From Octopus vulgaris (lineage: Eukaryota): 64,000 bases of DNA. The stretch covers positions 31,310,001 to 31,374,000 of the forward strand of contig OX597838.1 of assembly GCA_951406725.2 (NCBI GenBank). Direction: 5' to 3'. Shown piece after piece: positions 41,472 to 45,500 of this stretch (position 1 is its first letter; every line of letters starts with the position of its first letter). A program made the position numbers.

Positions 41472-42495
41472 GAGAGAGGGGGGAGTAAAGTGTGTGTGTG
41501 TGTGTGTGTGTGTTGGAGAGTCAATGAGCTACAGGCCACCCCTACCTACAGGCCATTCATTTATAGGCAGAAAGTGTAAGAAATAAAGCCAGTCCAGCCC
41601 TTTAGCATTTAAACCAGCCATATCTGGCCCGAAAATTCTACTTGTTTTATGCTCAAACTGGTTTCTCACACCTCCCCTACAATGTCATTACAAAACTATT
41701 GAATCACATCATTGAAATTCCAAAGCTACAAGATGGTGCAATATTAATTCAAAACGATGTGAGTAAATAAACATTGGATTTGATAAAGTAATCTGAATGC
41801 TAAAGGGTTAAGAGTAAAAAAAATGGTTTGACTATGAATCGACTTGCACTGCTGTTGGGTGGTGTGCATGCATGCATACATTTTTGTTATTCATGCATTT
41901 AGTAGACAACAGCCTTGTCTAGGACCAAATCCCTTGTTCCCAGGCTATTCCAATGGTGAGAGGGACAAAAGAATATCTGTGCTACCTGGACAGAATAAAT
42001 ACCAGGAAGCATTTTAGTTTGAATGCACCAGTTTATTAGTTTCCTCTCTCATCTTTACAGCCATCTGTTTGTTGGTAGTAGATTGAATATCAAATAATAT
42101 ATTTTTAAGTTGTTAGATTTCATTTGGTTATTTTGTTTTGCTTCATCGGCAAGGAAACGCTCAAGCAAGAAAAACCAAACAAAGGAACATTATTAAAACA
42201 TAATTATAATGGAAACTGGCTGAGACTGTGTGAAGCAATAACTGCAGTTTGTTATGAACAATATGAATAGGCAGTGAGATAATCAAAGAAACACAAGCAT
42301 TACCAAGAGTTCAGCAGTCACTCCAAGAAACCAAAATGCAACTTCAAATTGCTTTGGAAAGCTGCATGTATGTTTGTGGGAATGTGTATGTACACAGATG
42401 CATGTGAACAAATGTATAGCTCAGATATATCTACACACAACTGTGCTCACAATTGCTATGTTGCTGTTGTTGTTGTTAACATTACTGACAATGCT

Positions 42496-42544
<49 letters not shown>

Positions 42545-45500
42545 TGGATTGTAAAACATTGATGCAATGTGATGAAGGCATTTTGCTAGCGTTATAGGTA
42601 TTTCCAATCATCGCCTGCAGTTTCCACTGAATGATGAAAGGAAAAGCGAAGCAGGTGCAACTAGGATGCATTGAAAATAAAAATGGAAAATTTAAATTTC
42701 AGCAAAGAAAGATGGGGGGGAAAAGGGGGCAGGTGGGAGTGTGTTAAGTTTAGTTTGAAATCATAGAAACATAATCAAGTGTGCTTTGTTGCTTTACCAC
42801 ATTCTAAGAGCAAAGGATTATTTAATTAGCACCTCAAAAAGAAAAAAAAAAAACGGTAGAATATGGCTGGCTACTTATTTAGTAACAAAGATTGCAGTTC
42901 AAAGACTCGCATAGATGTAGCAGCTGAAAACTAACAAGGGCATGCATGCATTTGTGAAAGCCAGCCAACTTGCCACCACCACCACCAGACCCACTTACAT
43001 CACAGCCCTACCACCACCACCACCATTGCCGCCATCATCAACCTATTTCTTTACACAATTATTTGAAGTGCTCTGCTTTATGATCTTACTCCTCTCACGC
43101 CTTGGCATCCCTAGTTATTGGAATGCTGTGTTAGAAGGGAAATAACTTTATATTGCATGACCTCAGTACGCCAATGATAAGCTCCTCTCTCAGATAAATG
43201 AGTTAAGCAGAATTAAATTGAAAGAAATGACCTGTCACAAGAGAGAGCGAGAAAGAGCGAGAGAGAGCGAGCAAGAGCGAGGGGGAGGGGGAGGGAGAGA
43301 GAGAGGAGGGGTGGCAGTAATAATCAGTGCAAGGAGTGACATGTATTGAAGTATTTTCAAATGTAAACTAGGAAATGCAAAAGTTATTCAGCATAAAAGA
43401 ATTTCATTATATTATTCAGATTTCAAAGTCAAACGTTGACAGCAATATGTGTATAGATTACATACAACAAATAGCTAAATCTATGCTGTTACACCTCACT
43501 TTTAACATTTATTTCAACTATCACATGGATGAATAATCACAATTTTCTTTCTTTTTTTTTTTTTTAACCTTCAGTAGGTTTTATAGGAAAATTTCTTTTA
43601 AAGTCAAATTTGGAATGGTTTGTATCATTGCCAGTCTTTAACAAGTGACAAATAAACCGACATATTAACCTGCTGGAAATAGCAGCTAAATCTCCTTCAA
43701 ATCATATGGTACATAACAGACATGTTGGATGATTTTTACAATAACTATGTCTCAATAAAATAAAATTTAAAAAAAAACTGGGATGTTCATAGCTGGAACG
43801 TCTTTGATCATAGAAGGATAGCCCCAGGACAGAGCTGTCAATAAACATCAATTTGATTGTGAATGTTGTAGGCGTAAATTTTTAGCCAGCAATCTGTTTC
43901 ACATCGTTAATATCATTGATATCACAATTTGTTTCCCTTTTTCCCTACAAATCATCATCATTCATTCACTTCAGCAGTGCTTCTCAACCAGGGTCCACAT
44001 GTTCCTTCGAGGTCAATATAAGATTTTTTTTTTTTTTTTAATTATGCGCAATAAATTGGTTATAATTCTACACATTTCTTTTATACAATTCCTAATAATA
44101 TTTAATCATAAAAATAATAACAGAGATTTTTTAGTCACTGAATGGACTATGAGGGTCCATCCATGTAAAATAATAATCAATGGGGCCCGTAACTTAAAAA
44201 AAAAAAAAAAATGGTTGAGAACCACTGCCCTACAGTAACAAGAAAAGGTTACAGCAACAAATAGGACAGCAGCTAATAAAAGAGCCCCTGTGAGGGCCTG
44301 AGATATTATTTATTCTGTTCAGGTAGCACAGGTATTCTTTTGTCCTTCTCACTATTGGAATAGTGTGGGAACAAGGGATTTGGTCCTAGACAAGGCTGTT
44401 GTTTACTAAATGCATGAATAACAAAAATGCATGCATGCACGCACACCGCCCAACAGCAGTGCAAGGTGATTCATAGTCAAATTATTTTATTCTTACTCTT
44501 AACCCTTTAGCATTTGGATTACTTTAGCATTTAGATTACTAACCCTAACCCTAATGCCTCAATAAAGCCAAGGATGGGCACAGCTAGAAGATTGCCTTTG
44601 ATCACAGGCCGTCAGCTGAGTTAGAGCCGATCAGTGGCTTAACAATAACAACAACAGTTATAAAGTTTAATCATTATATAACAGCGATAGTATTACTAGT
44701 GGAATTAAATCATTTAGTTATCATTAAAGACAATTTTACTACAATTTTACTGCAAATTAAGCACCGTCACACCAAAAAAATGTTTCAAAGAAATATGTGT
44801 AATCGTTCTAAAACATTTTTTTTTAAATCACTTCTTTCACATAATATTAGAATTAAGGATTACTTGACATTTAACAATACATTAGAAACTAATTGTCTTA
44901 ACAATCTGTTGGTTTCATTAAAATATACAACATTGAGAAATTTAAGTCTCACATTACGTTTTGAACCTTACTGTTCATAATTTGTTAATCTAAGCCTTTG
45001 AAATTAATTGCATTTATTATGATTGTCGCTTCTTATGGTTAATAAGGAAATCATTATCGTTAAATGCTACGGAGGCATTCAGATTACTCTGTCAAACAAT
45101 GTTTATTTATTCAAACTGATTTGAATTAATCATACTTTATCTCATAGCTTTGATCACATTGTACGGCAAGTGTGAAAGGTCAAATATCACCAGTTTGAAC
45201 ATAGGACATATAGAATGTTTTGGCCCAACATCACTGGTTTAAATGCTGAAGAGTTAATAACATTTTTAAAAAAACTGATTTAAATGCTAAATCATATAAT
45301 ACGCTAGCTTTCCAGATCTCAGTCAAACCGTCCAACCCATGCCAGCATGGAAAAACGAACGTTAAACGATGATGATGATGGGAGGGCAGCTTTTTTTCTG
45401 TTTTTTGTTTGTGGTTTTTTTTACCAACAAATGATACTTAAGACATGGTAAGCACCAACTTGAGACAGGCCCACAAATATAAAAGGGAAGCACTTGTCTA

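What the first reader, a model, noticed from the sequence alone, without database searches (positions are those of the whole stretch)
41785..44525. Intronic ~220-bp inverted duplication with strand-polarised mismatches: candidate ADAR substrate in MED13 pre-mRNA
Seen: the arms (41785-42001 and 44307-44525) enclose a ~2.3-kb loop and start 1.2 kb upstream of exon A. Only ~25 bp of each arm is MITE end and the rest is found nowhere else in the window, so this looks like a local inverted duplication rather than two TE insertions. By my manual count about 12 transition differences give G-U pairs in a + strand RNA, and therefore A-C mismatches in the minus-strand MED13 pre-mRNA, against only 2-3 of the opposite polarity. 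Established: ADARs favour A opposite C in long duplexes, and coleoid cephalopods edit very heavily. Inference: the skew could reflect selection for editable A-C sites in the pre-mRNA, or for a G-U-stabilised antisense hairpin (hpRNA/endo-siRNA-like). Neutral drift should give no such skew.
Basis: partly seen in the sequence, partly recalled or inferred. Interest (0 to 1): 0.7.

Follow-up and report, generated by a model that had tools for sequence, protein, structure and literature searches.

The report
Inverted intron duplication in octopus MED13
A 220-base piece of an octopus MED13-like intron was copied backwards 2.3 kb away, so the pre-mRNA can fold into a long double-stranded stem of the ordinary kind that RNA-editing enzymes target; the lopsided mismatch pattern is real but too weak to show selection.

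Summary
The arms are 41781-42001 and 44307-44529, with 204 matches in 223 aligned columns and a 2305-nt loop. They lie 1.2 kb 5' of a MED13-like exon on the minus strand. Of 14 transition mismatches, 12 give G-U in plus-strand RNA, which is A:C in the pre-mRNA, and 2 give the reverse.

The left arm runs out of a full piggyBac-type MITE. The right arm keeps only the MITE tip, and ends in a 17-nt microduplication plus 2.7 telomeric hexamers, the only such run in the window. I read this as one local template-switch or break-repair event that copied left to right.

Both strands are predicted to pair the arms. This makes it a generic young-inverted-repeat ADAR substrate.

Regional mutation bias does not explain the skew: 88 other inverted pairs give 47.5% G-U type. 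But the skew is weak:
- Nominal p is 0.005-0.02, and the pair was picked out afterwards; 75 pairs in the window are comparable.
- 4 mismatch doublets are probably not independent events.
- 9 of the 12 fall in a single class.
- The mismatched A's show no ADAR-favoured neighbours.

Selection for A:C sites is not supported. Editing, small RNAs, genome-wide copy number and orthologous introns could not be checked.

The parts
41598..41808 (+). Full-length piggyBac-type MITE copy (ends CCCTTTAGC...GCTAAAGGG). Its last 28 nt form the outer end of the left arm.
   Evidence: about 10 copies in the window at 66-73% identity; alignment of 10 copies shows the termini and the TTAA flanks.
41809..41812 (+). 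TTAA target-site duplicate at the right end of the MITE. It was copied into the right arm as well.
   Evidence: alignment. L and rc-R both read GGG-TTAA-GAGTAA.
41781..42001 (+). Left arm, the inferred source copy: MITE tip + TTAA + 189 nt of unique intron.
42002..44306 (.). 2305-nt spacer (loop). It holds (TC)23 at 42498-42543 and a GA-rich array at 43240-43305, which are complementary to each other, plus homopolymer runs. No protein domain was recognised.
   Evidence: the 2 loop ORFs tested have no Pfam match at E<=0.1; no Rfam family.
44307..44529 (-). Right arm, the inferred derived copy, inverted. It carries only the tip of the MITE.
   Evidence: At the 2 mismatches that the MITE consensus can polarise (41794/41795), L keeps the consensus and R is changed.
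44505..44540 (.). 17-nt x 2.1 tandem microduplication of the MITE tip at the outer junction of the right arm.
   Evidence: TRF, 94% matches; D6.
44539..44554 (-). (TTAGGG)2.7 read on the minus strand. An interstitial telomere-type repeat that abuts the junction.
   Evidence: CTAACC x 2.7, 100%; the only 12-mer of this type in the window, on either strand.
40507..40587 (-). MED13-like exon ('exon A'), 1.2 kb 3' of the left arm in the pre-mRNA.
   Evidence: PDB MED13 residues 127-151, E = 2e-5. P0001 aa 143-169, 100%.
39623..40099 (-). The next MED13-like exons. There are two, and one tblastn HSP spans both.
   Evidence: PDB MED13 residues 156-242; P0001 aa 178-286.

Best explanation
About 240 bp of this intron was copied once, in inverted orientation, to a site 2.3 kb away. 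The piece comprises the last 28 nt of a piggyBac-type MITE, its TTAA and 189 nt of flank.

The copying most likely happened during repair of a break or a replication template switch. The 3' end of the minus strand at about 44555 received telomeric hexamers. It then copied the minus strand of the 41781-42001 region, slipping once to give the 17-nt microduplication. All of this is inferred from the junction anatomy.

The two copies are now 7.7% apart. When the intron, which is longer than 23 kb, is transcribed as part of the MED13-like pre-mRNA, the arms are predicted to form a 221-bp stem. This is a generic long-dsRNA substrate for ADAR, like any young inverted repeat pair. Substrate status is inferred, not shown.

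The 12:2 polarity skew is a by-product and not a selected feature. It is either strand-coordinated change in the copied arm or chance in a feature picked out afterwards. The strand-coordinated route would be deaminated cytosines in the single-stranded template together with error-prone synthesis. That route accounts for the 9 sites with G in the source and A in the copy, and for the excess of adjacent doublets.
For: - Arms and their divergence.
- The unique part has only two copies in 64 kb.
- L runs on into a full MITE, while R keeps only the tip. At 2 of 2 sites polarisable with the MITE consensus, R is the changed copy.
- Junction scars: a 17-nt x 2.1 duplication and (CTAACC)2.7, the only such repeat in the window.
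- TTAGGG is the telomere motif reported for an octopod: PMC13218726 and PMC6160780, one passage each.
- In mammals, short interstitial telomeric repeats mark repaired double-strand breaks: PMC2246262, abstract and passages.
- Stem prediction: cofold gives -336.8 kcal/mol for the minus strand and -365.7 for the plus strand. In 3101-nt folds, 206 (minus) and 211 (plus) inter-arm pairs appear in the MFE structure.
- Gene, strand and intron.
- Young repeats are the main A-to-I targets across metazoans, O. bimaculoides included: PMC9989829, abstract and passages.
- Skew as a by-product: 9 of the 12 sites are of one class. There are 4 adjacent doublets among 17 mismatches (simulation P = 0.027). With doublets collapsed the count is 10 of 12 (p = 0.018). 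The 5' neighbours of the 12 A's are C5, A3, U2, G2, against a background of A47, C40, U34, G19.
Against: - The skew is not explained by regional mutation bias. The other 88 inverted pairs give 696 G-U type against 770 A-C type, or 47.5%. The window's base skews (plus strand A>T, C>G) point the same way, opposite to the arms.
- The arms are the most skewed of 75 pairs with 8 or more transitions, so a real cause is possible.
- Only 2 of 17 differences could be polarised. The claim that most changes sit in R is an extrapolation.
- The 9 G/A sites share no single deamination motif. By eye on the alignment, the 3' neighbours are A x4, G x3, T x1 and C x1.
- The 9:3 split between the two G-U classes is not significantly different from the roughly 6.5:5.5 expected for a two-arm process. 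That expectation and its test are my own arithmetic on the L-arm base counts, with no call behind them.
- Genome-wide copy number is unknown, so the 'local' origin is not proven.
- Telomerase involvement rests on 16 nt.
Confidence: 0.6

Rival explanations
1. The A:C mismatches are kept by selection because they make preferred ADAR sites in the MED13 pre-mRNA duplex. Editing A to I would turn them into I:C pairs and tighten the stem.
For: - 12 A:C mismatches against 2 G-U in the minus-strand duplex.
- The skew runs against the regional background of 47.5%.
- An A-C mismatch gives the highest editing efficiency in the human-cell assays of 10.1101/605972 (passages read).
- The stem is predicted to form in the pre-mRNA.
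Against: - There is no functional target. The site is deep in an intron, 1.2 kb from the nearest exon.
- The 5' neighbours of the 12 A's are not the favoured ones: U 2 of 12 and G 2 of 12, against background U 34 of 140 and G 19 of 140. The preference order U > C~A > G is from 10.1101/605972.
- Nominal p is only 0.005-0.02, and falls further once doublets are counted as single events.
- The other young inverted pairs in the window also lean to G-U type (56:43).
- ADAR edits A:U pairs in long duplexes anyway, so mismatches are not needed.
- No editing data were available.
Confidence: 0.05
2. A plus-strand hairpin RNA, antisense to MED13 and hpRNA-like or otherwise structured, is under selection to stay paired. 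Only substitutions that leave G-U wobbles survive.
For: - 12 of 14 transitions keep pairing on the plus strand.
- The plus-strand duplex is 29 kcal/mol more stable than the minus-strand duplex.
- An excess of G-U over A-C is the classic way to tell the strand of a structured RNA. This point is recalled; my one search for a source found nothing (0 papers).
Against: - No evidence of plus-strand transcription could be sought here.
- There are no compensatory double changes. All 17 differences are single-sided, and 3 are non-pairing transversions.
- No Rfam family matches anywhere in the window.
- The statistics are as weak as for the first rival.
Confidence: 0.05
3. The arms are two copies of a low-copy composite repeat (MITE tip plus flank), or of a segment that came from elsewhere in the genome. 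They would then not be a local source-and-copy pair.
For: - The octopus genome is 43-66% repeats with many unclassified families (PMC13282606, passages).
- The window holds another young inverted pair, 16234-16630 / 33781-33383, that is a dispersed SINE-like element.
- Copy number outside the 64 kb could not be checked.
Against: - Only two copies exist in 64 kb, while the MITE has about 10 copies and the SINE family seen at 40989-41169 matches 7 other places; nhmmer at E<=10 finds only the arm and its partner.
- The left arm's outer end is not an element terminus. It lies inside a full-length MITE.
- No target-site duplication flanks the 2.75-kb unit (read).
- The 2 of 2 loop ORFs tested have no transposase domain.
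- The two copies lie 2.3 kb apart, with junction scars at one of them.
Confidence: 0.2
4. The skew is pure chance on top of ordinary clock-like divergence of the two copies.
For: - The feature was picked out after reading. The window has 75 comparable pairs, and the chance that at least one reaches p<=0.0054 is 0.34.
- With doublets collapsed, p is 0.018.
Against: - It is the single most skewed of the 75 pairs.
- The excess of doublets (P = 0.027) suggests that the divergence was not purely clock-like.
Confidence: 0.25

Closest known systems
Intronic inverted repeat pairs that form intramolecular dsRNA and are hyper-edited by ADAR. Examples are inverted Alu pairs in human, and the 'evolutionarily young repeats' across metazoans including O. 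bimaculoides (PMC9989829).
   Same: - Two young copies, 92% identical, in inverted orientation within one intron.
- A long predicted stem.
   Different: - The arms are not copies of a dispersed TE. They are a one-off local duplication of mostly unique intron.
- The spacer of 2.3 kb is slightly beyond the +/-2 kb window that paper used to call intramolecular dsRNA.
- Editing has not been observed here.
Templated inverted insertions from replication template switching or microhomology-mediated break-induced replication (FoSTeS/MMBIR; names recalled), and strand-coordinated mutation clusters in single-stranded repair intermediates (PMC9262586 and PMC6786661, abstracts in a search listing only).
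   Same: - The donor lies a few kb away and the copy is inverted.
- A second small templated piece, the 17-nt duplication, sits at the junction.
- There is an excess of adjacent double substitutions, and most differences are of one type.
   Different: - The ancestral empty site is not available, so microhomology at the junctions cannot be read.
- The mutation cluster has only 17 sites and shows no clear motif.
Short interstitial telomeric sequences inserted at double-strand-break repair sites in primates and rodents (PMC2246262; PMC7215372 and PMC8537989 seen as abstracts in the listing).
   Same: A perfect (TTAGGG)2.7 lies exactly at a rearrangement junction. [quoted passage not shown]
   Different: - It has only 2.7 units.
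- No orthologous empty locus has been compared.
- The phenomenon was described in mammals, not molluscs.
Drosophila-type hpRNA / endo-siRNA hairpin loci (recalled).
   Same: A long inverted repeat with a loop, and a G-U-rich stem on one strand.
   Different: - No small-RNA data were available.
- Mollusks show no evidence of an endo-siRNA pathway (PMC12479628).
- The hairpin strand is antisense to the host gene, and its transcription is unknown.

Membership tests
ADAR substrate of the young-inverted-repeat class (operational definition in PMC9989829, Methods passages) | Reverse-complement alignment of at least 80% identity over at least 50 nt | tested here: met
   204 of 223 columns match, or 91.5%.
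ADAR substrate of the young-inverted-repeat class | The partner lies within the 4001-nt window centred on the site (+/-2 kb) | tested here: not met
   Paired positions are 2306-2748 nt apart (coordinates). The limit is an arbitrary search setting. In 3.1-kb folds the arms still pair.
ADAR substrate of the young-inverted-repeat class | Both arms lie in one transcript | tested here: inconclusive
   Exon A, at 40587-40507 on the minus strand, encodes aa 143-169 of the Octopus MED13-like model P0001. Residues 1-142 of that model have no match in the window. So the arms lie in the intron 5' of exon A by inference. No RNA data were available.
ADAR substrate of the young-inverted-repeat class | Clustered A-to-G differences between RNA and DNA on the transcribed strand | not testable with these tools
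   No RNA-seq or genome collection for this organism was at hand.
hpRNA / endo-siRNA locus | Transcription of the hairpin strand and Dicer-size small RNAs from the stem | not testable with these tools
   No small-RNA data. The literature reports no evidence of an endo-siRNA pathway in mollusks (PMC12479628, passages).
hpRNA / structured RNA under selection | Compensatory (double-sided) changes that keep pairs | tested here: not met
   With only two copies, every one of the 17 differences is single-sided. None is compensatory, and 3 break pairing on both strands.
piggyBac-type MITE (outer 28 nt of the arms) | Terminal inverted repeats starting CCC...GGG, and a TTAA target-site duplication | tested here: met
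   The copy ends read CCCTTTAGC / GCTAAAGGG. TTAA is present at the left end of 7 of the 8 other copies that have that end. TTAA follows GGG in L, in rc-R and in 4 other copies. The family name is recalled from these hallmarks and was not matched to a library.
Single DNA transposon with long terminal inverted repeats (the whole of 41781-44529) | Element termini at the outer ends of the arms, flanked by a target-site duplication | tested here: not met
   The left outer end lies inside a full-length MITE. No direct repeat flanks the unit.
Single DNA transposon with long terminal inverted repeats | A transposase remnant inside, or further copies | tested here: not met
   The 2 loop ORFs tested have no Pfam hit at E<=0.1. 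There are no other copies in 64 kb. Genome-wide copies were not checked.
Interstitial telomeric sequence left by break repair | A telomeric hexamer run at an insertion junction that is absent from the orthologous empty site | tested here: inconclusive
   The run and its place at the junction are shown. The empty site cannot be examined.

The most novel reading that the evidence does not exclude
The skew is selected. The stem is kept as an A:C-studded duplex in the MED13 pre-mRNA, so that ADAR editing (A:C to I:C) tightens it. Near exon A it would then work as an editing-dependent structural switch on splicing or on self-dsRNA sensing.

A second reading that is not excluded is that the right arm was reverse-transcribed from the MED13 pre-mRNA at a telomerase-extended break. 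The geometry fits this: the strand that extends the TTAGGG run has the sequence complementary to the pre-mRNA.
Probability: 0.05. Interest if true: 0.7.

Novelty: new member of a known kind. Interest (0 to 1): 0.25.

Why it matters
As it stands this is one more young inverted repeat in a repeat-rich octopus intron. It is expected to be hyper-edited like thousands of others, and that is not surprising.

Two points have some value:
- G-U/A-C polarity between the arms of an inverted duplication cannot be read as selection without an outgroup. A single strand-coordinated mutation burst in the copied arm gives the same picture.
- The right junction carries a microduplication and telomeric hexamers. 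It is a clean candidate for a templated inverted insertion, with telomerase action at a break, in a mollusc. Comparison with a sister species' intron could confirm this.

If the skew did prove to be selected, it would be a rare case of non-coding sequence shaped for ADAR.

Tried and rejected
- Pfam on 7 ORFs (3 minus-strand exon-bearing ORFs, 1 minus-strand ORF beside exon A that holds no exon, 2 loop ORFs and 1 flank ORF): no family passed its cut-off. The only hit was a sub-threshold DDHD match in the polyQ exon.
- Rfam over the whole window: 0 matches.
- PDB sequence search with ORF 24281-24925 gave 0 hits, although later showed that it holds an exon. ORF 40395-40613 gave only a chance Cas6 hit at E = 1.3, so it is the wrong frame for exon A.
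- A regex hunt for N-terminal MED13 exons with seven short recalled motifs gave 1 chance match and none upstream of the arms.
- ARAGORN on the SINE-like head at 16200-16700: 0 genes.
- Regional strand-asymmetric mutation as the cause of the skew: rejected. The other 88 inverted pairs give 47.5% G-U type.
- CpG decay as the cause: rejected. By eye, only 3 of 14 transitions touch a CpG, and they split 2:1.
- A single TE with long TIRs: rejected (see Membership tests).
- Assembly fold-back artefact: rejected, because the arms differ at 17 sites and enclose a 2.3-kb unique spacer.
- A literature search for a source on G-U/A-C strand inference found 0 papers.
- No complex, structure or atlas job was needed.
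Full report
**The observation**

The repeat finder reports an inverted pair at 41817-42001 / 44307-44491 (185 nt, 92%) and an adjoining one at 41781-41823 / 44487-44529 (43 nt, 88%). 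A local alignment of the left region with the reverse complement of the right region joins them into a single alignment.
- It runs from 41781-42001 against 44529-44307.
- It has 223 columns: 204 matches, 17 mismatches and 2 one-base gaps in an A-run.
- The spacer is 2305 nt.
- BLAST gives E = 2.5e-84 for the pair.

Polarity, also:
- 12 of the 14 transition mismatches would be G-U or U-G pairs in plus-strand RNA, and so C-A or A-C mismatches in minus-strand RNA.
- Nine of these have G in the left arm and A in the reverse-complemented right arm. Three have T and C.
- Two have the opposite polarity, and three are transversion-type.
- The binomial p against 0.5 is 0.013.

**Gene context**

I searched the exons one by one.
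- ORF 39905-40147 (minus) matches PDB MED13 chains at residues 156-206 (E = 4e-14).
- ORF 39584-39904 (minus) matches residues 206-242.
- ORF 40501-40674 (minus) matches residues 127-151.

A protein search with one exon returned a 704-aa record named 'mediator of RNA polymerase II transcription subunit 13-like [Octop...' (P0001). It is 100% identical over the exon.

tblastn of P0001 on the window places its residues as follows, all on the minus strand:

| P0001 residues | Window coordinates |
|---|---|
| 143-169 | 40587-40507 |
| 178-286 | 40099-39623 |
| 272-395 | 24655-24284 |
| 392-423 | 23158-23063 |
| 415-668 | 19361-18609 |

Residues 1-142 have no match in the window. So the intron 5' of exon A runs beyond coordinate 64000 and contains the repeat. 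This is an inference from the gene model. The left arm starts 1194 nt from exon A.

**What the arms are made of**

The left arm grows out of a full-length element at 41598-41808. This element has about 10 copies in the window at 66-73% identity.

An alignment of 10 copies shows ends of CCCTTTAGC...GCTAAAGGG. TTAA is present at the left end of 7 of the 8 other copies that have that end. TTAA follows GGG in L, in the right arm and in 4 other copies. These are the hallmarks of a piggyBac-type MITE. The name is recalled from those hallmarks; I matched no library.

So the arm consists of 28 nt of MITE tip, the TTAA and 189 nt of flank. That 189-nt part has exactly one other copy in the 64 kb, its partner. 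This holds with BLAST at word size 9 and with nhmmer at E<=10.

The right arm keeps only the MITE tip. Beyond the tip lie two features:
- a 17-nt unit repeated 2.1 times at 44505-44540, at 94%;
- (CTAACC)2.7 at 44539-44554, the only telomere-type 12-mer in the window on either strand.

TTAGGG is the telomere motif reported for an octopod (PMC13218726 and PMC6160780, one passage each, both citing Adachi et al. 2014, which I did not see).

At the two mismatches that lie in the MITE tip, the left arm keeps the family consensus and the right arm is changed.

**Origin (inferred)**

The full MITE on the left and the truncated, scarred copy on the right point to left as the source and right as the copy. 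Three further points fit a local origin:
- The MITE tips of the arms are 88% identical, while MITE copies are about 72% alike.
- The left outer end of the repeat lies inside a MITE, so it is not an element terminus.
- No target-site duplication flanks the 2.75-kb unit, and the two loop ORFs tested have no Pfam domain.

I therefore read the structure as one templated inverted insertion.

Read on the minus strand, the junction runs: flank, then TTAGGG x 2.7, then the MITE tip twice, then the rest of the arm. This is what extension of a minus-strand 3' end at a break would give. Telomeric repeats would be added first. The end would then copy from the minus strand of the 41781-42001 region, with one slip.

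In mammals, short interstitial telomeric runs mark repaired breaks (PMC2246262, abstract and passages). No such work on molluscs came up in the one search that I made on this.

The p-distance between the arms is 0.077, and the Jukes-Cantor distance is 0.081.

**Does it fold?**

Co-folding the two arms gives -365.7 kcal/mol for the plus strand and -336.8 for the minus strand. In minimum-energy folds of the whole 3101-nt region, 211 inter-arm pairs form on the plus strand and 206 on the minus strand.

So the pre-mRNA is predicted to carry a stem of about 220 bp. Across metazoans, O. bimaculoides included, A-to-I editing mainly targets dsRNA formed by young repeats (PMC9989829, abstract and passages). 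'Candidate ADAR substrate' is therefore fair, but only in that generic sense. No RNA data could be consulted.

**Is the skew more than drift?**

That does not hold in general. Any strand-asymmetric mutation acting on both arms, or a strand-coordinated burst in one arm, produces exactly this polarity.

I first tested the regional version.
- Of the 89 inverted BLAST pairs in the window, the other 88 show 696 G-U-type against 770 A-C-type transitions, or 47.5%.
- The plus strand is A>T and C>G.
- So the regional bias, if there is one, runs the other way and does not explain the arms.

Against that background:
- 12 of 14 has a two-sided p of 0.0054.
- BLAST's 12 of 15 gives p = 0.017.
- Counting the two same-type doublets as single events gives 10 of 12, p = 0.018.

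The arms rank first among the 75 pairs with at least 8 transitions. However, the chance that at least one of 75 reaches 0.0054 is 0.34. The nine other young pairs (at least 85% identical) lean the same way, 56:43; these pairs are not independent of one another.

**Pointers to a mutational origin**
- Four of the mismatches' neighbours are adjacent doublets (41794/5, 41825/6, 41841/2, 41943/4). Simulation gives P = 0.027 for four or more. This is typical of error-prone synthesis and not of clock-like drift.
- Nine of the twelve G-U-type sites belong to one class, G in the source and A in the copy. Cytosine deamination in a single-stranded minus-sense template would produce this class.
- Strand-coordinated clusters in single-stranded repair intermediates are well described in yeast and in tumours. 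I saw PMC9262586 and PMC6786661 as abstracts in a search listing only.

The weaknesses of this reading:
- Only 2 of the 17 sites are polarised.
- The nine sites share no motif.
- The 9:3 split is not significantly different from the roughly 6.5:5.5 that a two-arm process would give. This is my own arithmetic from the base counts.

**Tests of the selection readings**

For the ADAR reading I looked at the neighbours of the 12 A's that face C in the minus-strand RNA.
- The 5' neighbours are C5, A3, U2, G2. The background over all 140 A's in the arms is A47, C40, U34, G19.
- The favoured order is U > C~A > G, with an A-C mismatch edited best (10.1101/605972, passages). There is no enrichment of good contexts.

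For the plus-strand hairpin reading:
- None of the 17 differences is compensatory.
- There is no Rfam match.

Neither reading is excluded. I give each about 0.05.

**What stayed unchecked**

These are the checks that would decide the matter:
- genome-wide copy number of the arm;
- orthologous introns in other octopods;
- A-to-G calls from RNA-seq;
- small RNAs.

No collection at hand holds this genome. The supplementary tables of PMC9989829 were not opened.

**Verdict**

The feature is real and the skew is real. The best-supported account is a one-off local inverted templated insertion in a MED13-like intron. It now forms an ordinary long-dsRNA stem, and its mismatch polarity is a by-product of how or when the copy was made, or is chance. 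It is a new member of a known kind. Interest is low to moderate.

Noticed in passing
16234-16630 and 33383-33781: A 399-bp SINE-like pair, 96.7% identical, in inverted orientation and 17 kb apart. It brackets three MED13-like exons (24655-24284, 23158-23063, 19361-18609). Pairing across exons is the arrangement known to favour back-splicing or exon skipping. Its polarity is 6 G-U type to 1 A-C type. ARAGORN finds no tRNA in its head.
   Followed up: partly
44505-44554: A 17-nt x 2.1 microduplication of the MITE tip is followed directly by (CTAACC)2.7. This is the only telomere-type repeat in the window, and it sits at the outer junction of the right arm.
   Followed up: partly
41590-41600: The left end of the MITE copy at 41598-41808 is flanked by CCAG in place of TTAA. 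Seven of the 8 other copies that have that end keep TTAA. This suggests a further rearrangement or deletion at that edge.
   Followed up: no
40992-41056 / 45313-45378, 41600-41662 / 45189-45251, 41721-41800 / 45075-45152: Outside the arms, older TE copies (a SINE-like element and a second MITE) also lie in inverted orientation, at 78-85% identity. The intron therefore has nested pairing potential over about 4.4 kb.
   Followed up: no
42481-42539 / 43263-43321: Inside the loop, a (TC)n tract and a GA-rich array are complementary over about 59 nt at 75%.
   Followed up: no
18609-19361 (minus strand): The large MED13-like exon carries a very long glutamine (CAG/CAA) run. P0001 aligns across it at 96%.
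   Followed up: no
whole window: The plus strand has A>T (AT skew +0.074) and C>G (GC skew -0.030). So the coding (minus) strand is rich in T and G. From recall, this is the direction reported for transcription-associated mutational asymmetry in mammals.
   Followed up: partly
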